Below the pieces are notes generated by a model that was not told where the DNA came from, did no database searches, and saw only the letters and a program-made list of their open reading frames with translations. Position numbers and translations under genes: made by a program. This document shows, piece by piece, positions 151 through 34,989 of a DNA stretch of 40,444 nucleotides. This DNA comes from a virus. The stretch lies in UHGV virus genome UHGV-1410056, one strand, 5' to 3'. The stretch's first letter is position 1. Each line of letters starts with the position of its first letter.

Positions 151-165
151 TTACCTTAAAGGTAT
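151..165. promoter_or_regulatory. Operator-like palindrome TTACC-ttaaa-GGTAT upstream of int (one mismatch to TTACC-N5-GGTAA)
   Basis: Member of the dispersed TTACC-N5-GGTAA family; nested in a larger inverted repeat GACGGTA (144-150) / TACCGTC (173-179). Confidence 0.5.
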
Positions 166-207
166 ACTCTCATACCGTCATGAAAATGGTTTCTATACGG
201 GTGAATT

Positions 208-1458
208 GTGCTTACCGATACAAAATTAAAAAACCTCAAGCCGCAGGACAAACTGTACAAGGTCTCCGATCGTGACGGGCTGTATGTAGCTGTGCTTACG
301 TCAGGCACGGTCTCGTTTCGCTATGACTACCGTATCAACGGTCGCCGCGAAACACTGGTAATCGGGCAGTATGGGCGTGACGGTATCAGCCTGGCAGAAG
401 CGCGAGAAGAACTGATTGCTGCAAAGAAGCTGCTTAAAGCAGGCCAGTCACCGGCTGCGGCTAAACGTGACGGTATCAAAAAGATTCGTGGTGCCGAGAC
501 GTTTGCGGTACATACCGACAGTTATATGAAACACGTCATCCTGGCTGACAGTACCCGCGCAATGAAACAGGCGGTGATCGACCGTGACATACTTCCGGTT
601 CTTGGCAATAAAATGATGGCTGAAATTACCACATCGATGGTTCGTGATTTGTGTGACCGGATTGTCGAACGCGGTGGCCGGGCAACAGCAGTGCAGGCCA
701 GGGAGATCATCAGTAGCGTATACCGTCACGCCAATGACCGTGGTCATGGTTTGTTTAATCCTGCGGCTGACATTAAACCTTCGTCTATCGCCATATTTAA
801 ACCACGAGAGCGAACACTGACACCAGAAGAAATTGGCCTGTTCTTCCGCACGCTGGATGCCATTGGTGCTATGGGCACTATGAAAATGGCTTTAAAACTG
901 GTGCTTATCACTATGGTTCGTAAGGGCGAATTCACCAATGCAACGTGGGATGAAATAGATTTTAAAAAATGGACATGGACAATTCCTCCAGACCGCATGA
1001 AGGGAAGCCGGGCGCACGTTATTTACCTGCCTAAACAGGCACAGGATATATTGGTCGGGTTGCAGATGTGCGCTGGTGGAAGTGAATATCTGGTTCCTGG
1101 TCGTTACAATTTCCGGAAGCCATTATCTAATGCCGCGCTGAACTCTCTGATCGACAGAACGGTGAAAATAATAAATGAAGATGGTGAGCATATTCAGGAC
1201 TTCACTGTACATGATATGCGCCGTACAGCCAGTACGTTGTTGCATGAGGCTGGTTATCCTTCAGACTGGATTGAAAAGGCTCTGGCACATGAGCAGAAAG
1301 GTGTGCGCGCCGTATATAACAAAGCGGAATACGCCAGACAGCGCGCCTACATGTTGCAGCAGTGGGCCGATATGATTGATTCATGGATTGACGGGGAGCA
1401 TACGGATCTGATTCCGTTCTCCCCGTCGAAGTTTGAGAAGTGGATGGCGGGGGAATAA
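208..1458 (+). CDS. int: Tyrosine recombinase, P4-type phage integrase
   Basis: 416-aa ORF, GTG start at 208; N-terminus LTDTKLKNLKP and C-terminal catalytic region (HDMRRTASTLLHEAG ... VRAVYNK) typical of P4-family integrases; adjacent to attL. Confidence 0.9.
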   Translation: MLTDTKLKNLKPQDKLYKVSDRDGLYVAVLTSGTVSFRYDYRINGRRETLVIGQYGRDGISLAEAREELIAAKKLLKAGQSPAAAKRDGIKKIRGAETFAVHTDSYMKHVILADSTRAMKQAVIDRDILPVLGNKMMAEITTSMVRDLCDRIVERGGRATAVQAREIISSVYRHANDRGHGLFNPAADIKPSSIAIFKPRERTLTPEEIGLFFRTLDAIGAMGTMKMALKLVLITMVRKGEFTNATWDEIDFKKWTWTIPPDRMKGSRAHVIYLPKQAQDILVGLQMCAGGSEYLVPGRYNFRKPLSNAALNSLIDRTVKIINEDGEHIQDFTVHDMRRTASTLLHEAGYPSDWIEKALAHEQKGVRAVYNKAEYARQRAYMLQQWADMIDSWIDGEHTDLIPFSPSKFEKWMAGE

Positions 1459-1461
1459 CGT

Positions 1462-1656
1462 TTAATAGTTCTGCTGATTTTCTTCCATCTCTGCTTCTGC
1501 TGCCAGTGATTCAATTTTGTTTTCGAATATTGCTGACAGTGTTGCAAATTCAGCATCAGTGACAGCGGGAATTGGAACAAACCTGATCCCGCTGTGTGCA
1601 AGCATGTTTGCAGTTTCAAGGCATTTTCTTAAATCTGCTGGTGATGCCCTGTTCAT
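1462..1656 (-). CDS. Hypothetical small protein (64 aa), translationally coupled to the methyltransferase
   Basis: ATG at 1656-1654 overlaps the methyltransferase stop (ATGA overlap); ends ...AEAEMEENQQNY; longer track ORF 1462..1776 overlaps the methylase in another frame. Confidence 0.5.
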   Translation of the reverse strand: MNRASPADLRKCLETANMLAHSGIRFVPIPAVTDAEFATLSAIFENKIESLAAEAEMEENQQNY

Positions 1657-2303
1657 GCAGCACGCTCCCGCCCCTGGATGTCTGTTGGTGACAGCGGAGC
1701 ATTGCTGAATGCATTTGTTAATCCGCCAATATCCAACGCGTATCCAGGGTGTAGTTGCACTGCCGGGTCTTCGCACTGATTACCCCAAACATCAAAGCCA
1801 TGAGACGTCTGGCGGGCGAACAGTTCAATGCGAGAAACATCGCCTAATAATTGCACAAGTTTTTCACGAACGATATCTGGCTTTCTTGAATGCTCAAGCC
1901 GCGGTGCGGTAAATGACTGAACGATCCCTGCATTAATGCGCGTAGGTAGTTTTCCCTTTACCGCAAACAGGCAATCTTCACTATTGGCGCGAGTCATGTG
2001 TCCCATACCCATAACCAGTTTATCTGGTTGTCGACTACCACATTTTATCCACGTGAAGCCCTTCATCGTCATCAGACGGAATCCCCAGGCTTCAACAACT
2101 TTTAGTGCTTCGAGTGGTTGTGTTGGCACCCACCACATGGCCAACAGACAGTTTTCATCGGCCAAATCCCACACAGGAAGGCGGCAGATATCCAGCACAC
2201 TCATAACCGGATATTTAAAACCGGCACCGCGATTACCATCTGCGGCTTTGTCCCGGTATACCCAGGGTGGATCTGCATAGATTAGTGTGTATTTCTTAGT
2301 CAT
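1653..2303 (-). CDS. DNA N6-adenine methyltransferase, MT-A70 family
   Basis: Catalytic DPPW motif in IYADPPWVY near the N-terminus; first ATG at 2303 (track ORF begins at GTG 2315). Confidence 0.8.
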   Translation of the reverse strand: MTKKYTLIYADPPWVYRDKAADGNRGAGFKYPVMSVLDICRLPVWDLADENCLLAMWWVPTQPLEALKVVEAWGFRLMTMKGFTWIKCGSRQPDKLVMGMGHMTRANSEDCLFAVKGKLPTRINAGIVQSFTAPRLEHSRKPDIVREKLVQLLGDVSRIELFARQTSHGFDVWGNQCEDPAVQLHPGYALDIGGLTNAFSNAPLSPTDIQGRERAA

Positions 2304-2547
2304 AAACCACCCCACAACATCCTATGCCGCTATAGTCGCCACGGCGAAGGCCGTTACCTTTTGTGATACATTGGTCCCTGCGAACCGCGATCCTTGCACG
2401 TTCAACATCACCAGAAGCAACATCCATACACTGAAGCCAAAGGTGAGCGGCAATGCGGAATTGCCCTTTTTTCTCTCTTTCAATCGCGCGTTTTTCGATC
2501 TCTATCGCCGCAGGAGTAACGGCGACAATCTTTGACGGACTGCGCAT
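2296..2547 (-). CDS. Hypothetical protein (about 83 aa)
   Basis: ORF in track (2296..2595); start chosen at ATG 2547 (MRSPSK...) with AAGG 8 nt upstream; 8-nt overlap with methylase start. Confidence 0.4.
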   Translation of the reverse strand: MRSPSKIVAVTPAAIEIEKRAIEREKKGQFRIAAHLWLQCMDVASGDVERARIAVRRDQCITKGNGLRRGDYSGIGCCGVVYD

Positions 2548-2704
2548 TGAAACCTTATTCATGTGATATTTTTCAAGTCGGCTTAACTTTCTCACTTAAT
2601 CCAACCCTCTCTGAAAATTAATGCCAGCAGATAAAGCCATGCTGAAACAGAGGCCAGGAATAAGTACCATCCTGACCATTTGCTCCAGTGCCTTAGCAGC
2701 GCAC

Positions 2705-2953
2705 TCATGCAGCGTTGCTCACGGGACGATATACACGTTGCTGAACAGGAGGCTTTTTACCCTGGAACTCTGCCGGGCTTGCTGCCTGACGTTCATCAAG
2801 CCAACGCTCAACTTCATCACGGTTCCATGCGCAGCGTTTATCGGTGATATACCAGCGTTTAGGAAATTCCCCTGCGCGCTCCATACGGTCGATAGTGCTC
2901 CATGACAGTGGCACCACCGCCAGGAGTTCTTTCTTACCTAATGCACCTTTCAT
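2705..2953 (-). CDS. AlpA-family DNA-binding protein (excisionase-like regulator)
   Basis: 82 aa; winged-helix-like core LSWSTIDRMERAGEFPKRWYITDKRCAWNRDEVERWL resembles AlpA/Xis family; SD AGAGAGG upstream. Confidence 0.6.
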   Translation of the reverse strand: MKGALGKKELLAVVPLSWSTIDRMERAGEFPKRWYITDKRCAWNRDEVERWLDERQAASPAEFQGKKPPVQQRVYRPVSNAA

Positions 2954-3002
2954 GAATACCTCTCTTGGTTGCAGTGCGGCGCACGTGGCGCCGCGGTGGT
3001 GG

Positions 3003-4025
3003 TTACTCGAATTCTGGACGCATATCGTTAAGCGTCATCATGAATTTTTGGTGATATTCATCACCGAGCTTTTCAGCCATGGTGTTAATTTCATTTTCAG
3101 CGCGCTTGAACATCGTTTTTGCATCTTCAGCAGATGGATCCAGGCTATTAAGTATCGCGATGATATATTCTCGAGCTTCTTCTCGTTCTGAATCTGAAAT
3201 TGGCGACAGGTGTTGACGCTCATCGTCAACTACGGAATATTCACCAGTGATAACAGCTGCGTTATCTTGGCTAAGTCCAGCTTCAGCGCGCTCATCCATA
3301 ACAACAGCCTTCTGCATTTCAATAGAAACAGGAAGATATTTGAACAGTCGGCGAATTACTGTTTTTTTAGCCATCTCATCGAAGTGATCAACCCATGGGC
3401 CACTGCTACCGGCTTTGCTCAGTGCACGAACTTTCTCAACGTCTGCCCGGCTCATAACTTCAAATTGGACTCCGCCATCTTTCAGTCGTGCAACGGCGTA
3501 AACGTGCGTTAATTCTCCGCGGTCACCTGTTTCGCAAGGTAAATGCTCGAGCGTTTCTTCCAGGCCGTATGAGTAGCTGAATTTGTCGTTTGTATGTACG
3601 GTACGAGCCGAGATACTCAGGATCTGCCCAGAGCGGCGGGCAAGGTCAATCATTCCGCGATAGCCGATAATCAGCTGTGCTTCTGTAGATACGGTTTCCC
3701 ATCTTCCATTTACTTTCTGGCGTTTGTCGAACGGTATCAGGTAAGCGTGTCCAAGAGCTCCGCCTGGTTCAAGACCCAATTGGGCACATTGCATAATTGC
3801 CCCCAGGAAGCTGGCTTGGTCGCATGATGCAAGTTTTGGAACCTTTCTGATCTCTGTGGTTGCTATGCGCGCCAGACGGTCTGCTGTCATGTGCTTTGGA
3901 AGTGCCAAAGCCATCTGAGCTTTAATTTTTGGGTCTGCCAGAAGTCCGGCCAGAGTTGTTGGTTTCTCATTATGATGTGCAACTTGGTTACCGGTAGCCG
4001 CTGCCTTAAGTGCATTGATAGACAT
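3003..4025 (-). CDS. recT: RecT-family single-strand annealing recombinase
   Basis: 340 aa; RecT-like core (ISARTVHTNDKFSYSYG ... HVYAVARLKDGGVQFEVMS); AAGGAG SD; immediately downstream of the YqaJ exonuclease gene. Confidence 0.8.
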   Translation of the reverse strand: MSINALKAAATGNQVAHHNEKPTTLAGLLADPKIKAQMALALPKHMTADRLARIATTEIRKVPKLASCDQASFLGAIMQCAQLGLEPGGALGHAYLIPFDKRQKVNGRWETVSTEAQLIIGYRGMIDLARRSGQILSISARTVHTNDKFSYSYGLEETLEHLPCETGDRGELTHVYAVARLKDGGVQFEVMSRADVEKVRALSKAGSSGPWVDHFDEMAKKTVIRRLFKYLPVSIEMQKAVVMDERAEAGLSQDNAAVITGEYSVVDDERQHLSPISDSEREEAREYIIAILNSLDPSAEDAKTMFKRAENEINTMAEKLGDEYHQKFMMTLNDMRPEFE

Positions 4026-4034
4026 TTTTTCTCC

Positions 4035-4934
4035 TTACTTCATTCTGAAGACGCGTTGTGTCGTTGTTGTTTTGAATTTTTCGAATAACTCAGGGTGTAC
4101 TGACTGGAATAGCTTCTGGTCGAATCTGTTGCTGATCTGAGATTTCCATGTGCAGAGCGGCTTTCCGTCCAGGGTCAGGACTGAGTGCTCTTGCATGTAC
4201 ATCTTCAGCTTCTCTTCTGATATAGCTATTTCTTCTTCCAGTGATTTTCTGCGTGATTTCATGTCTCGTAGATCGTTGAATAGTGCGAGTGCCTTTCCGT
4301 CAGCCTCGATACTTGTCCCGGCATCTTTCTCAAACATCAGCGATACATCGCTTACGCTGGTAGCTTCCGGCGGGTTAAGATTTTTCACTCGGTCCCAGAA
4401 AGCGATTTCTTTTTCTAAGATCGCCTGGATAGTTTCTTCATCACGCTCAACCCGATAGATTCGGAAGTCGTCGCCACCGATAAGCACACCGAAAACGCAT
4501 ACCTGTTTGTTTGTAACCATCAACCCGTGCATGGCCTGGGCCGTGTAATGCACAGGAATTGCATCTGTCTGGATTTCTCCCCATTCTTTGGCTTTGAACG
4601 GACTAACTGTTTTGATCTCAATGTTCTCGCCTGACGCTGCTTCTGCATCGATCTCAGCTGCAATAAAATCGTAATCACGGTGGATATAGCGGTTTCCGCG
4701 ATGAACGATTTCCATCCCTGTTTCCTCAGAAAGCAGGTCTATTACGTATGGCTCCATACGCTGGCCACGCGTGAAAACTTTCTGCTTGCTTGGGTCTACT
4801 GGTTTGACACGTGGCTGGACCTTATCCAGATAAACCTCAAGCGGGGTGCGCCATGGGCTAATTCCAAGAATCCCTGCAACATCGCTTCCTCCGATGTATT
4901 TTGTTCTATCCATGATTCCAGCGTTCCGCATCAT
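4035..4934 (-). CDS. YqaJ-type phage exonuclease (RecE/lambda-Exo-like partner of RecT)
   Basis: 299 aa; N-terminal GGSDVAGILGISPWRTP signature of YqaJ viral recombinase nucleases; ATGA overlap with upstream gene. Confidence 0.75.
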   Translation of the reverse strand: MMRNAGIMDRTKYIGGSDVAGILGISPWRTPLEVYLDKVQPRVKPVDPSKQKVFTRGQRMEPYVIDLLSEETGMEIVHRGNRYIHRDYDFIAAEIDAEAASGENIEIKTVSPFKAKEWGEIQTDAIPVHYTAQAMHGLMVTNKQVCVFGVLIGGDDFRIYRVERDEETIQAILEKEIAFWDRVKNLNPPEATSVSDVSLMFEKDAGTSIEADGKALALFNDLRDMKSRRKSLEEEIAISEEKLKMYMQEHSVLTLDGKPLCTWKSQISNRFDQKLFQSVHPELFEKFKTTTTQRVFRMK

Positions 4935-5230
4935 GCCGCGTCCCTCTGCCCATCAAGCTGATCCGCCAGATCCCAGCGCGCTATAATTGCCATTGCCTCG
5001 CGCCGGTAGGCATCCATCAGTTCTTCGAACTCAGGGCTGTCTTTAGCAGCCTCCAGCACTTCCTGACGAACGCCTTTGCCTGTTACAACGTCGAAAGTTG
5101 AGGACAGTTGATGAAGTCGGATGCTCTCAATCAGTTCAACTTGTCGGTCATATAGCTGTTCTGACAGGCGGTAGTCCTTGTCGAATGCCAGCATGATTTT
5201 TTGAAGATTTTTCTGCTGATTAACGTTCAT
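4931..5230 (-). CDS. Hypothetical protein (99 aa) of the leftward early operon
   Basis: ORF in track; start taken at ATG 5230 (MNVNQQ...) preceded by GGGAGGG. Confidence 0.5.
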   Translation of the reverse strand: MNVNQQKNLQKIMLAFDKDYRLSEQLYDRQVELIESIRLHQLSSTFDVVTGKGVRQEVLEAAKDSPEFEELMDAYRREAMAIIARWDLADQLDGQRDAA

Positions 5231-5232
5231 TA

Positions 5233-5385
5233 TCAGCCCTCCCATATCTCGTTATCGTTGGCTACATCGCGAGCTTCTTTGCTGACGAAAGCCCACTTAA
5301 TGCCTTCCTGTAAGGTGCGGAACTTCCAGCTCATGAATCCGCATGCAGTAACGCAGTACCAACCGTTGATGATTTTCCACTGCAT
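5233..5385 (-). CDS. Small hypothetical protein (50 aa, MQWKIINGWYCVTACGFMSWKFRTLQEGIKWAFVSKEARDVANDNEIWEG), first gene downstream of the putative PL promoter
   Basis: Not in the ORF track (<60 aa); ATG at 5385 with GAGG 9 nt upstream; ends 3 nt before the next gene start. Confidence 0.45.
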   Translation of the reverse strand: MQWKIINGWYCVTACGFMSWKFRTLQEGIKWAFVSKEARDVANDNEIWEG

Positions 5386-5404: not shown

Positions 5405-5482
5405 TTACCGTTGGGGTAATAATTATGCTTATTTGGTTTGGTGTCAATAGATATGAGTTAAAAAAAATTACCCGTAAGGTAA
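5405..5482. promoter_or_regulatory. Putative OL/PL region: two perfect TTACC-N5-GGTAA palindromes (5405-5419, 5468-5482) flanking a leftward promoter
   Basis: Reverse-strand TTGACA (plus 5442-5447) then about 17 bp to an AT-rich -10; one operator overlaps the start region, one lies about 60 bp upstream. Confidence 0.6.
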
Positions 5483-5539: not shown

Positions 5540-6124
5540 TTATTGTTTGCTTTTTTCGTTCTGGTTGATGACAAATTCAATGTAACTTTCGATCTTTGCT
5601 TTCTCGGTTTCGGGTAACAATGCGTAGCGTGAGCGGTCATAGTTGATAGTCGCAGGGTCGTGCGGGTGAATCAGTAGTTCATATCCGTGACGCCCGAATG
5701 CGGATGCAACATTCTCCAGGGTGGAAATGGAAACGCTGACCTCATTGTTTAACAGGCGGCTGATTGTCACCTGGGCGACGCCGGATGCGCGGTGAAGTTT
5801 TCCCTGTGTTGAAAGGTCGCGGCTTTCGCTCATCCAGCGTTCCAGGTTGTGAGCCGCCAGCTGACCTATATCGCTCGGGCCGACAGGCTGAAAACCCTCC
5901 TGAGAAAGCGAACGATCAATATCAAGCCAGTTACGGGGTTTATTGGCGGCAGCTTCAATTTTTCGTGCAACCTGGTCGCCGATAACCTTCTTGCCAAGAG
6001 CCCAGCGGTTTACCAGATTTGCCTGAGTTCCAAGTTTTTCTGCCATCCGCGTCTGAACACCATTGAATTCACGGTCGATCAAGTCGTTGAGATTTTGCCT
6101 GCGGACGTCCTGGATACTTTTCAT
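5540..6124 (-). CDS. CI-like phage repressor with two HTH (XRE-type) domains and no S24 peptidase domain
   Basis: 194 aa; two HTH-like segments (TRMAEKLGTQANLVNRW... and ASGVAQVTISRLLNNE...); no Ser/Lys autocleavage module; divergent from Cro-like gene; no SD before ATG (possibly leaderless). Confidence 0.7.
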   Translation of the reverse strand: MKSIQDVRRQNLNDLIDREFNGVQTRMAEKLGTQANLVNRWALGKKVIGDQVARKIEAAANKPRNWLDIDRSLSQEGFQPVGPSDIGQLAAHNLERWMSESRDLSTQGKLHRASGVAQVTISRLLNNEVSVSISTLENVASAFGRHGYELLIHPHDPATINYDRSRYALLPETEKAKIESYIEFVINQNEKSKQ

Positions 6125-6179: not shown

Positions 6180-6242
6180 TTACCCAACAGGTAAATGCAC
6201 CTCATAGGTAACTATCCTTGATTTTTGTTACCTTATGGGTGA
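6180..6242. promoter_or_regulatory. Putative OR region: three adjacent operators (6180-6194 perfect; 6197-6211 GCACC variant; 6228-6242 GGTGA variant)
   Basis: Lies between divergent repressor and cro-like genes; candidate rightward promoter TTGTTA-17-TATTAT overlaps the third site. Confidence 0.6.
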
Positions 6243-6278: not shown

Positions 6279-6509
6279 ATGAGCGATAACGGACATTTCG
6301 ATTTCAAAAAGCACTGGCTTGCACTTACTCCGGATGAGCGTGAAGCCTTCGCACAGGAAGCCGGAACGACGAGTCACTATATCCAGACTCACTTAACAGG
6401 CAAGCGCAAAATGCCAGGTAAAGTATTGATGAATGGGCTTTTTAAAGCCTGTAAAACAAGACAATGGCTGCGCTCAAAAGCAGAACTGGCATACTTCTTC
6501 TACTCATGA
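6279..6509 (+). CDS. Cro/YdaS-like small HTH regulator
   Basis: 76 aa; divergent from repressor; HTH-like segment DEREAFAQEAGTTSHYIQTHLTGKRKMP. Confidence 0.55.
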   Translation: MSDNGHFDFKKHWLALTPDEREAFAQEAGTTSHYIQTHLTGKRKMPGKVLMNGLFKACKTRQWLRSKAELAYFFYS

Positions 6510-6556: not shown

Positions 6557-6657
6557 ATCTATTCGCACCTTAAGGGTAATAAAAAACCAAATCTGGTTGA
6601 TCAAATTTTCCAATTGTGCAAAATAGCCAATATCAATAACAAAAAGGGGCGGAAAAA

Positions 6658-8466: not shown

Positions 8467-8543
8467 TTACCTGTTAGGTAACAAAATATTATAAACTCTA
8501 TTGATTTCATGTCTTATGTGGTTTTTAATTACCTCAGAGGTAA
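8467..8543. promoter_or_regulatory. Two perfect TTACC-N5-GGTAA operators (8467-8481, 8529-8543) immediately upstream of the gene starting at 8547
   Basis: Second site overlaps the SD (GAGG 8537-8540). Confidence 0.55.
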
Positions 8544-12340: not shown

Positions 12341-12383
12341 GCATGGTACTATTACCACAACGGTAACTATTACCACGGTGGTT

Positions 12384-12980
12384 ATGATGCCTGCTGAACC
12401 TAAAACCTATAAACGCAAATCAACGCAATTTAAGCCACTAACAGCAATGCAGGAGGCTTATTGCCAGTCATACATCAAAACGCCTGAAAACCAGACTCAG
12501 GCAGCGATTAACGCAGGATTCTCCCCAAATACAGCGGCAGTTAAAGCCAGTGTCATGATGCGCGATGAACGCATTCAAAAACGGATTGCCGAGTTGATGG
12601 AGGAGCGCAACAAACGAATGCGCGTCAGTGCTGATTACGTTCTCATGCGCCTGGTGGAGATCGACCAGATGGACGTGATCGACATCCTCAACGACGATGG
12701 GAGCCTTAAACCAATCCGTGAGTGGCCGAAAATCTGGCGCACTACGCTTAGTGGCTTTGATCTGTCATCGACCATCATGAACATGAACGAGGATTCGATA
12801 GAGACAATCCTCAAAAAAATTAAATGGCCTGACAAGGTGAAGAACCTTGAGCTGATTGGTAAGCATGTTGATGTCAACGCGTTCAAAGAACGTCTGGATG
12901 TTAATGTGAATGTGACAATTGCTGATCGCATAGCAGCAGCCAGGAAGCGACTCAAAGAACGTCAGGATGGTAATCAGTGA
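12384..12980 (+). CDS. Terminase small subunit
   Basis: 198 aa from ATG 12384; N-terminal HTH-like region (AAINAGFSPNTAAVKAS); directly upstream of and overlapping the large subunit; track ORF start at 12306 lies inside a terminator hairpin. Confidence 0.65.
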   Translation: MMPAEPKTYKRKSTQFKPLTAMQEAYCQSYIKTPENQTQAAINAGFSPNTAAVKASVMMRDERIQKRIAELMEERNKRMRVSADYVLMRLVEIDQMDVIDILNDDGSLKPIREWPKIWRTTLSGFDLSSTIMNMNEDSIETILKKIKWPDKVKNLELIGKHVDVNAFKERLDVNVNVTIADRIAAARKRLKERQDGNQ

Positions 12981-15117: not shown

Positions 15118-15194
15118 TGGCGTGGCATGCAGGATTCGAACCTGCGACCAACCGCTTAGAAGGCGGTTGCTCTGTCCAACTGAGCTAATGCCAC
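15118..15194 (-). tRNA. tRNA-Arg, anticodon UCU (reads AGA)
   Basis: 77 nt; manual fold gives 7-bp acceptor stem GUGGCAU/AUGCCAC, D-stem GCUC/GAGC, anticodon stem ACCGC/GCGGU with loop CUUCUAA, T-arm GCAGG-UUCGAAU-CCUGC, encoded CCA. Confidence 0.9.
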
Positions 15195-15516: not shown

Positions 15517-15531
15517 TTACCTGAAAGGTAA
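15517..15531. promoter_or_regulatory. Perfect TTACC-tgaaa-GGTAA operator between the divergent tRNA/moron transcript and the structural operon
   Basis: Adjacent reverse-strand TTGACA (plus 15549-15554) 17 bp from a TACCTT -10 candidate. Confidence 0.5.
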
Positions 15532-15621
15532 TAATTTGTGCGTTAAATGTCAACTATCTACGATAAATAAATCATATGTGGTTAAATTGGTAATAATTTA
15601 ATTGCGTACGGAGTCATTGAT

Positions 15622-31764: not shown

Positions 31765-31776
31765 GTGACATGTCAC
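31765..31776. promoter_or_regulatory. Perfect 12-bp palindrome GTGACATGTCAC
   Basis: Identical to 12262-12273; immediately followed by terminator 31777-31801. Confidence 0.45.
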
Positions 31777-32032: not shown

Positions 32033-32055
32033 CAAAAAAGCCCGCAGCGCGGGCT
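32033..32055 (-). terminator. Rho-independent terminator (minus strand) after the AT-rich two-gene cassette
   Basis: Stem AGCCCGC (32039-32045) / GCGGGCT (32049-32055), A6 on plus (T6 on minus); stem overlaps the stop codon at 32054-32056. Confidence 0.6.
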
Positions 32056-32494
32056 ATTCTTCTTCATCATTAAAAAGCGGATTGTTGTTTCCATCTGATG
32101 AAAGGAAAGGTATGTGTTCTCTTGAAAATCCAACAATGACAATTTCATTATCATTTTTTGCATAATGAATGCATTCATTAGAATGCCTTCCGCCAGGGTT
32201 GAAATTTAAGTTAATGGTATAATTCTTAAATGTGTTTGGATACCATGTTGGCCCACAATGATAATGCCAATAATTCTCTTGCTCATAATTGTCTGAGCCG
32301 GGAATTTTATCATGGTTATCATCAACCCACGAGGGCTTGTTTTTTCCAACAAGCGCCCTTCCATTGGCAACATCCTCTAAAAAACTTTGTATGATTTTTA
32401 TTTCATCATCAGTAAGGAAAGGTCCGTCTACAGCGAAAGGGGTGTTGCTTTCCCCATGTAGAAAACTATTAGATATTCTAATGTTAAACTTCAA
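32054..32494 (-). CDS. AT-rich hypothetical protein (146 aa, TTG start), unknown function; second gene of a two-gene cassette
   Basis: Track ORF 32054..32635 has no internal Met and its N-terminal 47 codons overlap the upstream small gene; TTG at 32494 preceded by AGGAG (6-nt spacer); His/Cys-rich segments (HYHCGPTW, GRHSNECIHY); markedly lower GC than surroundings. Confidence 0.45.
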   Translation of the reverse strand: MKFNIRISNSFLHGESNTPFAVDGPFLTDDEIKIIQSFLEDVANGRALVGKNKPSWVDDNHDKIPGSDNYEQENYWHYHCGPTWYPNTFKNYTINLNFNPGGRHSNECIHYAKNDNEIVIVGFSREHIPFLSSDGNNNPLFNDEEE

Positions 32495-32514
32495 GGAAAA
32501 CTCCTGATGTGCTT

Positions 32515-32682
32515 CTATTTGGAGCGAAATGCCGCCTTGAAGTCGCTGAAAGATGTTCCTGTCTGGTAAACCATATCCTTGTCGCGCTCTTTGCTTGCGC
32601 GGCCAAGCATAACTTTTCCAATGACATCCCAGCATTGCTTGGCTTGTTCATTGTGCTGAGTACGATTTTTCAACGCTGTCAT
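32515..32682 (-). CDS. Small hypothetical protein (55 aa, MTALKNRTQHNEQAKQCWDVIGKVMLGRASKERDKDMVYQTGTSFSDFKAAFRSK); first gene of the two-gene cassette
   Basis: Not in the ORF track; ATG 32682 with AGGAGG 6 nt upstream; operator 32695-32709 immediately upstream. Confidence 0.5.
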   Translation of the reverse strand: MTALKNRTQHNEQAKQCWDVIGKVMLGRASKERDKDMVYQTGTSFSDFKAAFRSK

Positions 32683-32694: not shown

Positions 32695-32709
32695 TTACCT
32701 TTAAGGTAA
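32695..32709. promoter_or_regulatory. Perfect TTACC-tttaa-GGTAA operator upstream of the two-gene cassette
   Basis: Lies 13 bp upstream of the start codon of the 55-aa gene. Confidence 0.5.
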
Positions 32710-32781: not shown

Positions 32782-33492
32782 TCAGAAGAACCCTGCCTTG
32801 TCGTTGATGTATTCCGCGTGGGTCTGGATATCACGCAGGCATTTGCTCACACCGACGATGTAGCAGAACATGGTGGTCAGCTCCGCCGCCGCGCCCGATA
32901 CGTCGTGCCCGTCGTCCTGTAACTGGTTCAGCAGATTCATCAGCAGTGAGTTCTCCGTCAGGCCGAGAACACCAGACGGCGAATTAATCAGGCTGCGGTA
33001 GCCGGGCTTCAGTGGGGCGCTGTAGGTTTTGTTCTCTATCTTCATCGCCTGCATTACTGCTGACGCCGTGGCGTTGGCTACCTGGTCGGCAACCATCTTT
33101 ATGCGTTCTTCCTGCGGGAGCGAGTTTTTAATGTAGCTTCCGGTGCGGCGGATCTGAGGAAGAACCTCACCCGTAACCCATTTACGAAAGCGGTAGGGGA
33201 TAGTGCCTGGTGTCACTGCGTCGCGGCAGCGGAGGATCAGTGTGTAGAGGCCTGACTCGGAGATGATGTTGATCTCTTTTACTCGGCTGTCAAAAATTGC
33301 ACGATGTTCATGCCCTATGTTGAACATAGACCTTTCATCATCATCCAGTTTTTCAAGTGCTTGGGTGACGTTTTGGATACGCAGCGCACTACAAACGTCT
33401 TGGGCTACAAACCATGGTTGGCCATCGATAATGATGGAACGGATAGGGTTAACAGATTCAAATTTGAAGATGGAAGTTTGAGCATTAGCCAT
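32782..33492 (-). CDS. Antirepressor (Bro-N / AntA-type N-terminal domain plus C-terminal domain)
   Basis: About 236 aa from ATG 33492; N-terminal Bro-N-like region (FKFESVNPIRSIIIDGQPWFVAQDVCSAL); C-terminal 80 aa paralogous to the LexA-box gene at 34641-34898. Confidence 0.7.
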   Translation of the reverse strand: MANAQTSIFKFESVNPIRSIIIDGQPWFVAQDVCSALRIQNVTQALEKLDDDERSMFNIGHEHRAIFDSRVKEINIISESGLYTLILRCRDAVTPGTIPYRFRKWVTGEVLPQIRRTGSYIKNSLPQEERIKMVADQVANATASAVMQAMKIENKTYSAPLKPGYRSLINSPSGVLGLTENSLLMNLLNQLQDDGHDVSGAAAELTTMFCYIVGVSKCLRDIQTHAEYINDKAGFF

Positions 33493-33510
33493 GGTGGTTA
33501 TCTCCACTTA

Positions 33511-33524: not shown

Positions 33525-33648
33525 CACCGCAACGCCAATTACTGGTGGTGAACTGGACAAGGTTGGCGTACCGGCCTAAGTGGTACCGGCGTCCTTTCGG
33601 ACCCCTGCCCAGCCCACCATAATTCGGATATAGCTGTGCTTAACGCAT

Positions 33649-33782
33649 AAAAAAACCACGTCTGGCGTGGTATGCGCCACTTAGTAACCCGGGACGCCAA
33701 TCCCGGCACTGGATTTTGCCAGTGCCCGATTACTATGGCACAAGAGGAGTGCGATGTAAATTTACCGCAAAGGTAATGATAA
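33649..33782 (-). ncRNA. Candidate small RNA or attenuated leader (about 120 nt) upstream of the antirepressor gene
   Basis: Reverse-strand promoter TTGATT (plus 33800-33805) - 17 bp - TATCAT (plus 33777-33782), overlapped by operator 33762-33776; transcript contains hairpins (GGCACTGG/CCAGTGCC; CCGGGA/TCCCGG) and ends at intrinsic terminator CCACG-N5-CGTGG + T7 (plus 33649-33670); no credible ORF. Confidence 0.4.
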
Positions 33783-33869
33783 ACGCGGAGAAATATCAAA
33801 ATCAACCGTATTTGGTTGGTGGCGTTTAACGCTTGATCACCTGAAAGCAAGATATTACCTTTAAGGTAA
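33762..33869. promoter_or_regulatory. Two perfect TTACC-N5-GGTAA operators (33762-33776, 33855-33869) in the divergent control region between the antirepressor side and the zinc-ribbon gene
   Basis: Second operator sits 20 bp upstream of ATG 33890. Confidence 0.5.
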
Positions 33870-33889
33870 TGTTATTGTGAGGAAAAGCA

Positions 33890-34618
33890 ATGGAAGTTTT
33901 CTGGATAGTTGTTGGTGTGGTTGCGGTGATTATTTACGTTATCAACCAGAACAAGACTAAGATCTCTGATCGTACGGTCGTTAATCATAACAAAACGATA
34001 AAGACCGAAGATGGGGAGATAACGATTAATCGTACACAGGTGATAGAACACACCTCTACTCAGTTTCAAAAAACTGGAGGTAATGCGCCTAATATTTCCG
34101 AACCTCCTGCTTATGATAGTGCGGTAATCCAGACATATTGTAAACAGCAGGAGTTAGCAAAAGAGAGGCAACTGATTCAGCCAAAGCCGTTTACAGCTGA
34201 GCTTCCACCTGGAGTATCAATGCGTCCGGCATATCATGGAAGATTCCCTGGTGATGACATATCGTCTCAGTCATCTAAAAAAGCACCTCAGGCAGTATCA
34301 GAGCCAGCAAGAATACCTTCTGTATCGCCGCCAAAAGAAGAATCAGCTAACAGAGTTTCAAGTGGCCGCAAGCAGTGTTTGCGATGCAGAATAAACCTTC
34401 CATATGACAAATTCCGGAAATCGTCAAAAAATCCAGATGGATTGACTAAGTGGTGTGCAAGGTGTCTCGATGGCCCAAAGAATACACGCCATATGAAGTG
34501 GTGCCCAATTTGTAATGTCCGCAGAAAACGGACCAGCTTTTACCCTAATAATCAAAATGCGGACGGCTTAATGGCATGGTGCAAAACGTGCTGGGACGAG
34601 CACAAAGCGAAACGATAG
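33890..34618 (+). CDS. Membrane-anchored protein with C-terminal tandem CxxC zinc-ribbon-like repeats; unknown function
   Basis: 242 aa; N-terminal TM helix (EVFWIVVGVVAVIIYVI); C-terminal repeats CLRCRINLPYDKFRKSSKNPDGLTKWCARC and CPICNVRRKRTSFYPNNQNADGLMAWCKTC. Confidence 0.55.
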   Translation: MEVFWIVVGVVAVIIYVINQNKTKISDRTVVNHNKTIKTEDGEITINRTQVIEHTSTQFQKTGGNAPNISEPPAYDSAVIQTYCKQQELAKERQLIQPKPFTAELPPGVSMRPAYHGRFPGDDISSQSSKKAPQAVSEPARIPSVSPPKEESANRVSSGRKQCLRCRINLPYDKFRKSSKNPDGLTKWCARCLDGPKNTRHMKWCPICNVRRKRTSFYPNNQNADGLMAWCKTCWDEHKAKR

Positions 34619-34640
34619 GCCGCTCTTGCGGCCTTTAAAT

Positions 34641-34898
34641 TTACCGGGTTTGTTTTCGTAATTGTTCGGCACAATAGTCGAGATGTGTTTGCAGATCCTG
34701 CATAGACATCTGTGAGCTGGTGACGTAGTTAATCAGTGCAGTCAGTTCGGCAAGTGGGCCATCGACATTAAATCCATCCTTATCGAGATCCCGGAGTAAT
34801 TTCATCAAGTGCGATCCCTCCACCAGTGACCTGACGCCTCCCGGCGTGTGAATCCTTTCGGTAAATCCGTCTTCCAGTGGATAGTGATACTGCTGCAT
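34641..34898 (-). CDS. Small LexA-controlled protein (85 aa) homologous to the antirepressor C-terminal domain; candidate SOS-induced antirepressor
   Basis: Start ATG 34898 (GGAGAAG SD) within track ORF 34641..34916; about 40% identity by eye to the C-terminus of the Bro-N antirepressor (shared GV..L.E.S.LM.LL..L..DG..V.G...ELT ... D.QTH); LexA box immediately upstream. Confidence 0.6.
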   Translation of the reverse strand: MQQYHYPLEDGFTERIHTPGGVRSLVEGSHLMKLLRDLDKDGFNVDGPLAELTALINYVTSSQMSMQDLQTHLDYCAEQLRKQTR

Positions 34899-34919
34899 CT
34901 TATCTTCTCCATGCAATAA

Positions 34920-34935
34920 CTGTATATTTATACAG
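34920..34935. promoter_or_regulatory. LexA (SOS) box CTGTATATTTATACAG
   Basis: Perfect CTGT-N8-ACAG with AT-rich spacer (extended TAACTGTATATTTATACAGTAT, 34917-34938), 4 bp from the first ATG of the minus-strand gene. Confidence 0.75.
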
Positions 34936-34974
34936 TATCAAATAATTTGTTTGCTATCCAGCACGTTTTGCAAA

Positions 34975-34989
34975 TTACCTGAAAGGTAA
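34975..34989. promoter_or_regulatory. Perfect TTACC-tgaaa-GGTAA operator between the LexA-controlled gene and the tailspike gene
   Basis: Same 15-bp sequence as the site at 15517-15531. Confidence 0.5.

What the first reader, a model, noticed from the sequence alone, without database searches (positions are those of the whole stretch)
151..34989. Genome-wide dispersed palindromic operator TTACC-N5-GGTAA (at least 10 perfect and 4 variant copies, all intergenic)
Perfect copies found by eye: 5405, 5468, 6180, 8467, 8529, 15517, 32695, 33762, 33855, 34975. Variant copies: 151 (GGTAT), 6197 and 6565 (GCACC left half), 6228 (GGTGA). A 10-nt specified palindrome is expected about 0.04 times by chance in 40 kb. 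The sites sit at the repressor/cro switch, the putative PL, upstream of int, inside the rightward early operon, at the head of the structural operon, and at three promoters of the accessory island, often in pairs 48-93 bp apart. A lambdoid repressor normally binds only at OL and OR; this distribution resembles the 'stoperator' networks of mycobacteriophage L5-type repressors. The binding protein is unknown.
Basis: seen in the sequence. Interest (0 to 1): 0.72.

Follow-up and report, generated by a model that had tools for sequence, protein, structure and literature searches.

The report
Dispersed repressor operators of epsilon15-like prophage
The repeated palindrome TTACC-N5-GGTAA is real and far from random, but it is the binding site already annotated for the main repressor of epsilon15-like phages, so this common E. 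coli prophage shows a known control system, not a new one.

Summary
None is expected by chance. Five imperfect copies (151, 6197, 6228, 6565, 12370) recur at the same loci in most or all of six related phages. All 16 sites lie in the 7.7% of the prophage that is non-genic. The other 23 matches with up to 2 mismatches are all inside genes, at background frequency.

The window is a complete Uetakevirus (epsilon15/phiV10-like) prophage bounded by its att cores. The epsilon15 GenBank record already marks seven dispersed copies of this motif as repressor binding sites. The 194-aa repressor here is a full-length homologue of the SPC32H repressor Rep (PDB 5D50), a tetramer inactivated by a small antirepressor, Ant.

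The motif is the top palindrome in all 7 Uetakevirus genomes and in 6 further Enterobacterales prophages, at syntenic positions. Pairs 61-63 bp apart flank promoter-like hexamers. Most sites overlap such hexamers or a ribosome-binding site.

The stoperator analogy fails on its defining features. Phage P1 C1 is the closer functional analogue.

Rep binding at these sites, the promoters and DNA looping are all inferred here, not tested.

Verdict: already known, modest interest.

The parts
5540..6124 (-). Rep, the 194-aa prophage repressor. It has an N-terminal HTH DNA-binding domain, a middle HTH_3 domain and a C-terminal tetramerisation/Ant-binding region. It has no S24 peptidase domain.
   Evidence: full-length match to SPC32H Rep, PDB 5D50, E 3.5e-42; only HTH families in Pfam; recognition helix N36-L-V-N-R-W41 invariant across 5 Rep types. 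Domain roles are taken (PMC9986798).
5405..5419 (.). PL-proximal operator (perfect). It abuts the -10 of the leftward PL-like promoter and covers the start region.
   Evidence: minus-strand TTGACA(5447-5442)-17-AATTAT(5424-5419). Conserved in 7 genomes.
5468..5482 (.). PL-distal operator (perfect), 63 bp from the proximal one and upstream of the PL -35.
   Evidence: The pair spacing is 61-63 bp in every relative that has the pair.
6180..6194 (.). OR operator 1 (perfect), between rep and gp39. It overlaps the -35 of a candidate leftward rep promoter (TTTACC-18-TAAATT, 6195->6166).
6197..6211 (.). OR operator 2 (GCACC left half, 2 mismatches), 17 bp from operator 1. The same position holds a perfect site in epsilon15, SPC32H and BUCT711.
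6228..6242 (.). OR operator 3 (GGTGA, 1 mismatch), in the -35/spacer of the rightward PR-like promoter (-35 TTGATT 6218 or TTGTTA 6225; -10 TATTAT 6248-6253).
   Evidence: The same mismatch is conserved at the syntenic site in six of the seven genomes; the BUCT711 site differs (ACACC).
6279..6509 (+). gp39 homologue, a 76-aa protein in the Cro position. It is a possible second binder of the OR sites.
   Evidence: phrog_35, transcriptional repressor; 58-84% identity across the genus with an invariant AGTTSHYIQ.HLT stretch.
6565..6579 (.). Variant operator (GCACC, 2 mismatches) after the gp39 terminator (6531-6550) and upstream of a promoter-like site (6597-6624) for the replication genes.
   Evidence: GTACC...GGTAA at the same locus in ZX5, phiV10 and Tyrion, and a 1-mismatch site in BUCT711.
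8467..8481 (.). Distal operator of the pair before the DUF1064 ('nin-like') operon (perfect).
   Evidence: It follows the terminator-like stem-loop after the P-like gene.
8529..8543 (.). Proximal operator (perfect). Its first T is the last base of the -10 of TTGATT-17-TTTAAT (8501-8529). Its spacer carries the GAGG ribosome-binding site of the DUF1064 gene (ATG 8547).
   Evidence: The 62-bp spacing is conserved in 7 phage genomes and is 61-62 bp in 6 prophages.
12352..12366 (.).
   Evidence: epsilon15 annotates the equivalent site (12-27) as repressor binding.
12370..12384 (.). Second terS operator (GGTTA, 1 mismatch), 18 bp from the first. It overlaps the terS ribosome-binding region.
   Evidence: The same mismatch occurs in ZX5, phiV10 and Tyrion.
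15517..15531 (.). Operator (perfect) at the head of the structural operon (gp3-like gene at 15622). It contains the -10 (TACCTT) of a strong leftward promoter-like site and lies 5 bp upstream of a rightward one (TTGTGC-17-TACGAT, 15536-15564).
   Evidence: epsilon15 annotates the equivalent site (2931-2947) as repressor binding.
15525..15553 (-). Leftward promoter-like site TTGACA-17-TACCTT, with an equivalent leftward site in all 7 genomes. It points at the tRNA-Arg gene.
   Evidence: (score 13.2, the highest near any site).
15118..15194 (-). tRNA-Arg(TCT), a likely product of the operator-controlled leftward promoter.
   Evidence: A minus-strand terminator lies at 15074-15039.
32695..32709 (.). 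Operator (perfect) upstream of the leftward gene 32054-32635 (PHROG 5954, unknown function).
   Evidence: A leftward promoter-like site TTGCAG-17-TACTAT runs 32737->32709, and its -10 ends on the operator's last base.
33762..33776 (.). Operator (perfect) at the leftward promoter of the isrK-like / C4 RNA / Bro-N-Ant module. The -10 TATCAT (33781-33776) ends on the first base of the operator.
   Evidence: The same site is present in phiV10 (20497) and ZX5 (2043).
33855..33869 (.). Operator (perfect) containing the -10 (TACCTT) of a rightward promoter-like site, TTGATC-17-TACCTT (33833-33861), for gene 33890-34618.
33541..33725 (-). C4 antisense RNA (33541-33624) and isrK-like sRNA (33649-33725), upstream of the Bro-N/Ant gene.
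   Evidence: Rfam RF01695 at 66 bits and RF01394 at 67.7 bits, both above their gathering scores.
32782..33507 (-). Bro-N protein whose C-terminal part is an Ant-like domain (a second antirepressor candidate).
   Evidence: 41% identity to the small Ant; 81% identity to ZX5 ORF4, whose overexpression reduced prophage titres about 1000-fold, favouring lytic growth.
34975..34989 (.). Operator (perfect) in the divergent ant / tail-fibre control region.
   Evidence: epsilon15 annotates the equivalent site (19895-19911) as repressor binding.
34920..34935 (.). Perfect LexA box CTGTATATTTATACAG overlapping the candidate ant promoter (TGGATA-17-TACTGT, 34960->34932).
   Evidence: A LexA-box-like sequence is present in all 7 genomes (near-consensus in BUCT711).
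34641..34898 (-). Small antirepressor Ant (85 aa).
   Evidence: 88% identity to SPC32H Ant..
151..165 (.). Possible weak operator (GGTAT, 1 mismatch) 42 bp upstream of int, in the spacer of a promoter-like site, GTGACG-15-TATACT (142-168). Its status is uncertain because it is nested between inverted integrase arm-type sites and lies in a hairpin.
   Evidence: (same variant in all 7 genomes).

Best explanation
TTACC-N5-GGTAA (extended form A-TTACC-NNWNN-GGTAA-T) is the operator of the Uetakevirus prophage repressor Rep. Rep is the family of epsilon15 gp38 and SPC32H Rep.

Proposed mechanism. Pairs of N-terminal HTH domains of a Rep tetramer read the two half-sites, whose centres are 10 bp (one helical turn) apart. 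The prophage carries 15 or 16 such sites at 9 loci. Apart from the terS pair, every site lies next to or overlaps promoter-like hexamers. The loci cover PL, the rep/gp39 switch, the replication genes, the DUF1064 operon, terS-terL, the structural operon together with a divergent tRNA-Arg, two accessory-island units, the ant/tail-fibre region and perhaps int; no site was found before the lysis operon.

Sites sit on the -10/+1 region, with the last base of the -10 being the first T of TTACC, or inside the -35/-10 spacer, or they contain the -10 itself (TACCTT). Bound Rep would therefore exclude RNA polymerase.

At PL and at the DUF1064 operon a second site lies 61-63 bp (six helical turns) away on the far side of the promoter. 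This suggests that one tetramer clamps both sites and loops out the promoter.

Rep has no autocleavage domain. Induction would therefore run through the LexA-controlled small Ant, with a second Ant-domain protein held down by a C4-type antisense RNA and a Rep operator.

What is shown here: the sites, their positions, their conservation, and the homology of Rep and Ant. What is inferred: Rep occupancy at each site, the promoter assignments and the looping.
For: (1) Non-randomness. There are 11 perfect copies against 0 expected. All 16 sites are non-genic, while all 23 background matches are genic.

(2) Prior annotation. epsilon15 records AY150271.2 and NC_004775.2 carry protein_bind features labelled 'repressor' on seven copies of exactly this motif. 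These lie upstream of terS, upstream of gp3, between gp19 and the tail fibre, at PL (three sites) and before gp43.

(3) Rep homology. Rep here matches SPC32H Rep (PDB 5D50) over its full length, E 3.5e-42. That protein has an N-terminal DNA-binding domain and binds palindromic sites as a tetramer.

(4) Association with the Rep recognition helix.
- TTACC-N5-GGTAA is the top palindrome in all 7 Uetakevirus genomes, with 8-11 copies each, and it is at least joint top in 6 further Enterobacterales prophages, with 5-9 copies in the 12-21 kb fetched.
- All of their Reps, 41-100% identical, keep the helix x-LVNRW.
- Five distant N-terminal-domain homologues with other helices lack the motif.
- Two phages that share only the Rep N-terminal domain and have no gp39 homologue carry related palindromes only around their repressor gene: TTACC-N4-GGTAA in PseuP_224 and only degenerate TTACCT-like sites in Mcat9.

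(5) Conserved architecture. Sites are syntenic. The weak variants carry the same mismatch at the same locus in most or all of the genomes. Pairs are 61-63 bp apart and flank promoter-like hexamers.

(6) Functional data in a 99%-identical phage. Overexpressing ZX5 Rep abolished free phage and cut endolysin and holin transcripts by more than 99.9%.

(7) Induction module. Ant is 88% identical to SPC32H Ant and has a perfect LexA box upstream.
Against: No binding data for these sites could be read. The epsilon15 genome paper and the two SPC32H papers are not in the held library. I therefore cannot say whether the epsilon15 features are experimental or predicted.

The promoter assignments are consensus matches from a simple scan and from my own weight matrix, not mapped transcription starts.

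No recognisable sigma-70 promoter accompanies the terS pair.

The gp39 protein is as conserved as Rep, so covariation within the genus cannot exclude that it also binds.

Site 151 has a competing annotation as an integrase arm site and RNase III hairpin.

The strongest OR site overlaps the candidate rep promoter rather than PR. This does not fit a simple lambda-like order of occupancy.
Confidence: 0.8

Rival explanations
1. The 76-aa protein in the Cro position (gp39 homologue, 6279-6509) binds these palindromes, either instead of Rep or, as lambda Cro does, in competition with Rep at some of them.
For: It is the first gene of the rightward operon next to three sites. It matches a PHROG of transcriptional repressors. 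It is highly conserved, with an invariant HTH-like stretch, in all genomes that carry the motif.
Against: TTACC-type palindromes flank Rep N-terminal-domain homologues in phages that have no gp39 homologue. epsilon15's depositors assign the sites to the repressor. Rep overexpression alone silences late genes in ZX5. Exclusive binding by gp39 is unlikely; shared binding at OR remains open.
Confidence: 0.2
2. Stoperator-like roadblocks. Repressor bound at intergenic sites inside transcription units stops elongating RNA polymerase rather than blocking initiation.
For: The terS pair (12352, 12370) lies downstream of a promoter-like site (12254-12282) and a terminator (12315-12332), with no good sigma-70 promoter of its own. 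Sites 8529 and 12370 overlap ribosome-binding regions. Sites are dispersed in short intergenic spaces.
Against: The sites are palindromic and so carry no orientation, whereas stoperators are asymmetric and orientation-dependent and are bound by a monomer. Rep homologues are tetramers that bind palindromes. At PL, PR, the DUF1064 operon, the gp3 locus and three accessory-island sites (32695, 33762, 33855), the site overlaps promoter-like hexamers; at the core loci this register is conserved across genomes.
Confidence: 0.12
3. The repeat is not regulatory. It could be a recombination, packaging or modification target, or a repeat inherited without function.
For: The phage encodes DNA methyltransferases and recombination proteins. 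One copy (151) overlaps integrase arm-type sites.
Against: The sites are confined to non-genic DNA next to gene starts. They keep fixed registers with promoter hexamers. Strong and weak variants are conserved locus by locus across hosts from at least six genera while the flanks diverge. They also track a repressor's recognition helix.
Confidence: 0.03

Closest known systems
epsilon15 gp38 / SPC32H Rep immunity system (Uetakevirus: epsilon15, phiV10, SPC32H, SPN1S, ZX5)
   Same: The gene order is the same. Rep is a full-length homologue and Ant is 88% identical with a LexA box upstream. The palindrome is identical and sits at the same loci. epsilon15's GenBank record labels seven of these sites as repressor binding.
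   Different: Rep is only 43% identical to the Salmonella proteins. Flank and spacer preferences differ slightly: the E. coli type favours TTACCT, the Salmonella type ATTACC. This prophage adds accessory-island sites (32695, 33855). epsilon15's annotation omits the OR sites and the second site of the gp43 pair. The phiV10-like E. coli records that I read in full (phiV10 and ZX5) annotate none of the sites.
Phage P1 C1 repressor with operators dispersed over the genome, plus the c4-(icd)-ant immunity module
   Same: One repressor acts at many promoters scattered over the genome. P1 has 22 operators, including those for replication and late-activator genes. An antirepressor is held down by a C4 antisense RNA. 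Here a C4-family RNA and an Ant-domain gene lie downstream of a Rep operator. That P1's c4-ant operon has a C1-controlled operator (Op51) is my recollection, not checked here.
   Different: P1 operators are asymmetric 17-mers (ATTGCTCTAATAAATTT), not palindromes. C1 was not compared with Rep here. P1 is a 94-kb plasmid prophage (from memory), whereas this is a 40-kb integrated podovirus prophage.
Mycobacteriophage L5-type repressor with stoperators
   Same: Many repressor sites (more than 20 in L5, 16 here) are spread through the genome in short intergenic spaces, beyond the immunity region.
   Different: L5 sites are asymmetric 13-mers bound by a monomer using two domains. They work only in one orientation and stop elongation. 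These sites are symmetric, are read by a homologue of a tetrameric repressor, and mostly overlap promoter elements.
Lambda-type OL/OR operators
   Same: There is a three-site operator between the divergent repressor gene and the Cro-position gene, with graded match to consensus, and a multi-site operator at PL.
   Different: Sites also occur at seven other loci. Rep has no RecA-dependent cleavage domain. Late genes appear to be gated directly rather than only through an antitermination cascade.
Rco of Bacillus plasmid pLS20 (looping repressor with a p53-like tetramerisation domain)
   Same: According to PMC9986798, SPC32H Rep shares with Rco a homologous N-terminal DNA-binding domain and a C-terminal tetramerisation fold. 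Rco loops DNA between two operators 75 bp apart that flank its promoters. The 61-63 bp operator pairs flanking PL and the DUF1064-operon promoter here have a similar layout.
   Different: Rco operators are arrays of direct 8-bp repeats, not single palindromes. Looping by Rep has not been shown; the same paper says Rep's repression mechanism is not well characterised.

Membership tests
Uetakevirus Rep-operator immunity system (epsilon15 gp38 / SPC32H Rep) | Repressor homologous to SPC32H Rep over its full length (N-terminal DNA-binding domain, middle domain, C-terminal tetramerisation/Ant-binding domain) | tested here: met
   5D50 chain A, E 3.5e-42, residues 1-190 aligned; alignment with 5 Rep types.
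Uetakevirus Rep-operator immunity system (epsilon15 gp38 / SPC32H Rep) | Operator palindrome (A)TTACC-N5-GGTAA(T) at the loci annotated as repressor binding in epsilon15 | tested here: met
   (epsilon15 features and their sequences). (same motif at syntenic loci in the window).
Uetakevirus Rep-operator immunity system (epsilon15 gp38 / SPC32H Rep) | Repressor without an autocleavage domain, with a small Ant antirepressor whose promoter carries a LexA box | tested here: met
   (no Peptidase_S24). (Ant 88% identical to SPC32H Ant). (perfect LexA box 34920-34935).
Uetakevirus Rep-operator immunity system (epsilon15 gp38 / SPC32H Rep) | Uetakevirus genome backbone | tested here: met
   97-100% protein identity to ZX5 and phiV10 over most genes; bounded by the ZX5 att core.
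Uetakevirus Rep-operator immunity system (epsilon15 gp38 / SPC32H Rep) | Direct binding of Rep to the sites | not testable with these tools
   Needs EMSA, footprinting or ChIP. The primary papers are not in the held library.
L5-type stoperator network | Asymmetric site (13-mer) | tested here: not met
   The sites are perfect 5+5 palindromes with an A/T centre in nearly all sites.
L5-type stoperator network | Site orientation correlates with the direction of transcription and is required for function | tested here: not met
   A palindrome has no orientation.
L5-type stoperator network | Monomeric repressor using two DNA-binding domains | tested here: not met
   By homology only. Rep matches the tetrameric SPC32H Rep, which binds palindromes through paired N-terminal domains.
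L5-type stoperator network | Sites inside transcription units that block elongation rather than initiation | tested here: inconclusive
   Most sites overlap promoter-like hexamers. The terS pair lies after a terminator without a recognisable promoter. No transcript data are available.
P1 C1-type dispersed operator regulon | One repressor with many operators at promoters scattered over the genome | tested here: met
   16 sites at 9 loci across 35 kb. P1 has 22 operators. Only the dispersal of the sites was tested; their link to promoters rests on consensus hexamer matches, and Rep occupancy was not tested.
P1 C1-type dispersed operator regulon | Asymmetric 17-bp operator ATTGCTCTAATAAATTT | tested here: not met
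   The motif here is a 15-bp palindrome.
P1 C1-type dispersed operator regulon | Repressor homologous to P1 C1 | not tested
   No direct comparison with C1 was run. Rep's domain matches are to generic HTH families and to SPC32H Rep.
Lambda-type OL/OR immunity | Operators confined to the two promoters that flank the repressor gene | tested here: not met
   Eleven of the 16 sites lie outside the PL and OR regions. By contrast, the distant relative PseuP_224 has all its TTACC-N4-GGTAA sites flanking cI.

The most novel reading that the evidence does not exclude
Uetakevirus Rep may be a P1-C1-like global silencer that directly gates almost every transcription unit of a small podovirus: early, replication, packaging, structural, tail fibre, antirepressors, a tRNA and perhaps int. 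It would do so by clamping operator pairs six helical turns apart around promoters.

Because about nine loci must change together, the operator core would have stayed frozen while Rep diverged to 41-45% identity. Prophages of Escherichia, Salmonella, Klebsiella, Enterobacter, Citrobacter and Erwinia would then share one immunity specificity. That is unlike lambdoid phages and Cluster A mycobacteriophages, where specificity diversifies.

None of this has, to my knowledge, been described beyond the site annotation in epsilon15.
Probability: 0.35. Interest if true: 0.5.

Novelty: already known. Interest (0 to 1): 0.27.

Why it matters
For this window it settles what the repeat is. It also gives a nearly complete regulatory map of a prophage whose immunity region is present in about 10% of complete E. 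coli genomes but whose operators are not annotated in the E. coli-type records read here (phiV10, ZX5).

More broadly, it is a compact case of a temperate phage that appears to silence each operon directly, rather than through an antitermination cascade. It also offers clear experimental handles:
- operator pairs with a fixed 62-bp spacing around promoters;
- weak variants that carry the same mismatch at the same locus in relatives;
- two antirepressor modules under different controls (LexA, and a C4-type RNA);
- an operator core that stays the same across repressors only 41-45% identical, which predicts cross-immunity between phages of different genera.

These points are incremental to what is known for epsilon15 and SPC32H. 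They do not define a new kind of system.

Tried and rejected
- **Primary papers.** I tried to read the epsilon15 genome paper (PMC2698709, PMID 17825342 and its DOI) and the two SPC32H papers (PMC4983836, PMC3807360). None is held. Statements about them rest on GenBank features and on citing papers, or are marked as recollection. The ZX5 paper mentions no operator sequence, and the epsilon34 paper was irrelevant.
- **Promoter scan.** The built-in scan found fewer promoter-like sites than the shuffles in 1-16000 (10 against 18.9) and caught only PL, PR and a few others. I therefore scored sigma-70 hexamers with my own weight matrix. These remain consensus matches only.
- **Half-site covariation within the genus.** There is none; the core is invariant. 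Covariation appears only against distant homologues.
- **Extra weak sites.** A search of non-genic DNA at 3 mismatches gave nothing convincing, and no site lies upstream of the lysis operon in this prophage.
- **Composite pattern.** ATRTGGTT-N6-GGTAAT gave no matches. The simple box TATGTGGTT does recur but is unexplained.
- **LexA boxes.** Genome-wide they are at background. Only the perfect one at ant is meaningful.
- **gp49-like regulator.** It has no informative Pfam, NCBIfam or PDB match, so I could not decide whether late transcription uses antitermination.
- **Host transcription factor as binder.** I rejected this because the motif tracks the phage Rep helix across hosts from at least six genera.

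Full report
**1. The observation**

An exact search finds TTACC-N5-GGTAA 11 times in the 40,444-bp window. The positions are 5405, 5468, 6180, 8467, 8529, 12352, 15517, 32695, 33762, 33855 and 34975. One hundred dinucleotide-preserving shuffles gave no matches.

As a control inside the real sequence, I built the same palindrome from each of the 29 other orderings of the half-site letters. These averaged 0.03 perfect copies, 1.3 copies with one mismatch and 13.7 +/- 7.2 copies with two. TTACC gives 11, 3 and 25. The excess is therefore in the perfect class, and two-mismatch matches are essentially background.

A blind scan of every 5-mer half-site with spacers of 0-12 bp also puts TTACC with spacer 5 first by a wide margin.

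Against a curated map of genes and RNA genes (92.3% genic), all 11 perfect sites are non-genic. So are five imperfect ones: 151, 6228 and 12370 with one mismatch, and 6197 and 6565 with two. All 23 other matches with up to two mismatches lie inside genes.

**2. What the window is**

The window starts and ends with the 17-bp core ATTGAGTGGGAATGATT. This is the attachment core reported for phage vB_EcoP_ZX5. The window is therefore exactly one integrated prophage.

Its immunity region is 97-99% identical to phages ZX5, HEMP4, TL-2011b and phiV10, all genus Uetakevirus, the epsilon15-like podoviruses. Most proteins are 97-100% identical to those of ZX5. The same immunity region is present in 540 of 5,426 complete E. 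coli genomes. This is a very common prophage.

**3. The sites are already annotated in the type phage**

The epsilon15 records carry protein_bind features labelled 'repressor / lysogeny'. This is true of both RefSeq NC_004775.2 and the depositors' AY150271.2. The features are at 12-27, 2931-2947, 19895-19911, 32479-32494, 32554-32570, 32616-32632 and 35906-35922.

Reading those coordinates gives (A)TTACC-N5-GGTAAT every time. They lie upstream of terS, upstream of gp3, between gp19 and the tail-fibre gene, at PL (three sites) and after the replication genes. These are the same kinds of locus as in the window. epsilon15 has four further perfect copies that its record does not mark, including two between the repressor gene and gp39.

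I could not read the epsilon15 genome paper. I therefore cannot say whether the features are predictions or tested sites. My recollection is that they were found by motif search.

**4. The binding protein**

The 194-aa product of 5540-6124 (minus strand) matches the repressor Rep of Salmonella phage SPC32H (PDB 5D50) over its whole length, E 3.5e-42. It has HTH domains and no S24 peptidase domain.

Papers that I could read describe SPC32H Rep as follows:
- It binds palindromic DNA sites as a tetramer, and each DNA-binding pair is formed by N-terminal domains from different dimers (PMC9638917).
- It has an N-terminal DNA-binding domain, a middle dimerisation domain and a C-terminal tetramerisation domain. 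The C-terminal domain also binds the antirepressor Ant, and its fold is shared with looping regulators (PMC9986798).

In the 99%-identical phage ZX5, overexpressing this repressor abolished free phage. It also cut endolysin and holin transcripts by more than 99.9%.

The window also encodes an 85-aa protein (34641-34898, minus strand) that is 88% identical to SPC32H Ant. A perfect LexA box lies just upstream at 34920-34935, and a LexA-box-like sequence is present in all seven genomes compared (near-consensus in BUCT711). That SPC32H Ant is LexA-controlled is my recollection of Kim and Ryu 2013, which I could not open.

**5. Does the motif go with Rep?

*Within the genus.* Seven Uetakevirus genomes have Reps that are 43-100% identical: the window, ZX5, phiV10, Tyrion, BUCT711, epsilon15 and SPC32H. 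TTACC-N5-GGTAA is the top palindrome in every one, with 8-11 copies. The half-site does not vary. Neither does the N-terminal recognition helix, N36-L-V-N-R-W41.

*Wider Enterobacterales.* A scan of bacterial genomes found six more prophages with full-length Reps, 41-74% identical and with helix x-LVNRW. They are in Superficieibacter, Erwinia, Klebsiella, Citrobacter (two) and Scandinavium. Each has 5-9 perfect copies in the 12-21 kb fetched, at the same offsets from rep.

*Distant homologues.* Five homologues that share only the N-terminal domain have different helices. They are in Paraburkholderia, Hydrogenovibrio and Thiomicrospira. They have no copy of the motif.

*Two phages that share only the Rep N-terminal domain and lack any gp39 homologue.* Both carry related palindromes only around their repressor gene. 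Pseudomonas phage PseuP_224 has five TTACC-N4-GGTAA sites flanking cI (three perfect, two imperfect). Moraxella phage Mcat9 has only degenerate TTACCT-like sites.

So the TTACC half-site follows the Rep N-terminal domain. The classical two-locus layout exists in relatives, and the dispersal is a trait of the Uetakevirus group.

Within the genus only minor preferences differ. Salmonella-type sites favour an outer A (ATTACC), and E. coli-type sites favour an inner T (TTACCT). The central base is A or T in nearly all sites.

**6. Anatomy of the sites**

Alignment of the syntenic regions shows that the imperfect sites are real. The same mismatch recurs at the same locus in other genomes:
- GGTAT upstream of int, in all seven genomes;
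- GGTGA (or its complement TCACC) at the third OR site, in six of the seven genomes;
- GGTTA at the second terS site, in four;
- G(T/C)ACC after gp39, in four genomes.

Spacing is equally fixed. The PL pair and the pair before the DUF1064 operon are 61-63 bp apart wherever a pair is present among the 13 genomes. The first two OR sites are 17 bp apart.

Scoring sigma-70 hexamers gives three recurrent registers.

(a) The last base of the -10 is the first T of TTACC:
- PL: minus strand, TTGACA-17-AATTAT, 5447 to 5419.
- The DUF1064 promoter: TTGATT-17-TTTAAT, 8501-8529.
- The leftward accessory promoter: TTGATT-18-TATCAT, 33805 to 33776.
- The promoter at 32709: TTGCAG-17-TACTAT.

(b) The operator lies in the -35/-10 spacer:
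- PR: site 6228. The -35 TTGATT is conserved in all seven genomes.
- Possibly P_int: site 151.

(c) The half-site itself supplies the -10 (TACCTT):
- 33833-33861, rightward.
- 15553 to 15525, leftward. This TTGACA-17-TACCTT site has the highest score near any site, and an equivalent site is present in all seven genomes.

Sites 8529 and 12370 also cover ribosome-binding regions. These are consensus matches, not mapped promoters.

**7. What is controlled**

Reading terminators and sites together, the prophage is cut into short units, and most of those units carry an operator at their head:
- the PL operon;
- rep and gp39;
- the replication genes (site 6565, after the gp39 terminator);
- the DUF1064 operon;
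- terS-terL (after terminator 12315-12332);
- the structural operon;
- three accessory-island units;
- the ant/tail-fibre region.

Two findings changed the picture of the 'accessory island' and the structural-operon site.

First, Rfam finds a C4 antisense RNA (33541-33624) and an isrK-like sRNA (33649-33725), both on the minus strand. They lie between operator 33762 and a Bro-N gene (32782-33507). The C-terminal part of that gene's product is 41% identical to Ant. This is the layout of the P1 c4-ant module, in which c4 RNA represses antirepressor synthesis. Here it lies downstream of a Rep operator. The homologous ZX5 protein promoted lytic growth when overexpressed.

Second, a tRNA-Arg(TCT) gene lies at 15118-15194 on the minus strand. 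It is downstream of the leftward promoter-like site whose -10 lies inside operator 15517. That operator would then control a divergent pair: the tRNA leftward and the structural genes rightward.

**8. Mechanism proposed**

Shown here: the motif, its confinement to control regions, the conserved registers and spacings, and the homology of Rep and Ant.

Inferred: Rep tetramers occupy the palindromes through paired N-terminal HTH domains, with half-site centres one helical turn apart. They exclude RNA polymerase from the overlapping hexamers. At PL and the DUF1064 promoter, one tetramer may hold both sites, six helical turns apart, and loop out the promoter.

The looping idea rests on the fixed spacing and on the description of Rep's tetramerisation fold as that of looping regulators. 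One such regulator is pLS20 Rco, which bridges operators 75 bp apart. The same paper notes that Rep's repression mechanism is not well characterised.

Induction would follow LexA cleavage, Ant synthesis and release of Rep. The C4-controlled Bro-N/Ant protein would be a second route.

**9. Points that do not fit neatly**

- The strongest OR site (6180) overlaps the candidate rep promoter, and the weakest (6228) overlaps PR. This is not the lambda order.
- The terS pair has no convincing sigma-70 promoter and lies downstream of a promoter-like site and a terminator. Rep there could act as a roadblock, or could block an activator-dependent promoter.
- Site 151 is flanked by inverted copies of GTGACGGTAT. 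epsilon15 annotates this sequence as an integrase binding site. Five perfect copies and one near-perfect inverted copy cluster at the two prophage ends (142, 172, 377, 467, 720, 40347). The site also sits in a hairpin with a folding z-score of -3.8. Its conservation may therefore owe nothing to Rep.
- gp39, in the Cro position, is as conserved as Rep. It may share some sites.

**10. Comparison with known systems**

*Membership.* This is the epsilon15/SPC32H Rep-operator system. Every defining feature that I could test is met; direct binding is untested.

*Function.* The closest analogue for dispersal is P1 C1, with 22 operators spread over the genome, an antirepressor and a c4 RNA. P1's operator is asymmetric, and I did not compare C1 with Rep.

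Whether any site stops elongation is undecided.

*Lambda.* The system differs from lambda in that 11 of the 16 sites lie outside PL and OR.

**11. Novelty and score**

The finding is correct and statistically overwhelming. However, the motif and its dispersed distribution are public annotation in the type phage of the genus, and the repressor family has been solved structurally. I rate it already known, interest 0.27.

To my knowledge the following have not been described:
- the full 16-site catalogue;
- the recurrence of the weak variants at the same loci in relatives;
- the fixed 61-63 bp pairs around promoters;
- the operator at the C4/Ant module;
- the operator at the tRNA promoter;
- the invariance of the core across repressors only 41-45% identical.

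The last point predicts cross-immunity between phages of different enterobacterial genera. This is the most novel reading that the evidence leaves open (probability about 0.35).

Noticed in passing
window 15118-15194 (minus strand): A tRNA-Arg(TCT) gene found by Rfam and ARAGORN. It overlaps the plus-strand ORF 14937-15188, which ZX5 and phiV10 annotate as a hypothetical protein and which is probably not a gene. SPC32H annotates a tRNA-Arg at the equivalent place. It lies downstream of a conserved leftward promoter-like site whose -10 is inside operator 15517.
   Followed up: partly
window 33541-33624 and 33649-33725 (minus strand): A C4 antisense RNA (RF01695) and an isrK-like sRNA (RF01394) sit upstream of a Bro-N gene (32782-33507). 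That gene's product has a C-terminal domain 41% identical to the small Ant. The layout resembles the P1 c4-ant immunity module. The mechanical ORF 33539-33850 is therefore not a protein gene.
   Followed up: partly
window 8515, 15575, 35021 (perfect); 38451, 33809, 5430, 8930 (1 mismatch): A conserved box, (C)ATATGTGGTT, lies in the leader or promoter regions of the DUF1064 operon, the structural operon, the tail-fibre gene and the lysis operon. It is conserved at the first three loci in all 7 Uetakevirus genomes. At gp3 and the tail fibre it is followed 5-6 nt later by GGTAATA plus a -10-like hexamer. epsilon15 annotates one copy as the start of an RNase III site. Its function is unknown; it may be a late-promoter or RNA-processing element.
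   Followed up: partly
window 12262-12273, 31765-31776 (perfect); 14527-14538 (1 mismatch): A 12-bp palindrome, GTGACATGTCAC, lies next to the terminators at operon ends: after the gp49-like regulator, after the last structural gene and after terL. The same palindrome recurs 2-4 times in most of the related genomes scanned. The first copy sits in the spacer of a promoter-like site, TTAATA-17-TAGATT.
   Followed up: no
window 11924-12265 (plus strand): The gp49-like 'transcriptional regulator' (PHROG 536) has a basic N-terminus and a C-terminal cysteine cluster (CCGKCG...CPCNGDSQC). It has no informative Pfam, NCBIfam or PDB match. Its position just before a promoter-like site, a terminator and terS resembles the lambda Q / PR' / tR' arrangement.
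   Followed up: partly
window 142-151, 172-181 (minus strand), 377-386, 467-476, 720-729 (minus strand), 40347-40356: Copies of GTGACGGTAT cluster at both prophage ends: 5 perfect and 1 near-perfect, with 11 matches at up to 1 mismatch against 1.7 expected. epsilon15 annotates this sequence as an integrase binding site. Three of the copies lie inside the int coding region.
   Followed up: partly
window 1-17 and 40428-40444: The 17-bp att core ATTGAGTGGGAATGATT is present at both ends. The window is therefore exactly the integrated prophage, with no host flank.
   Followed up: yes
L009 (Pseudomonas phage PseuP_224) 19922-19974 and 20797-20836: A siphovirus cI that shares only the Rep N-terminal domain (39% identity) has five sites built on the same TTACC half-site (three perfect, two imperfect), but with a 4-bp spacer. 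All of them flank cI in a classical OL/OR layout.
   Followed up: partly
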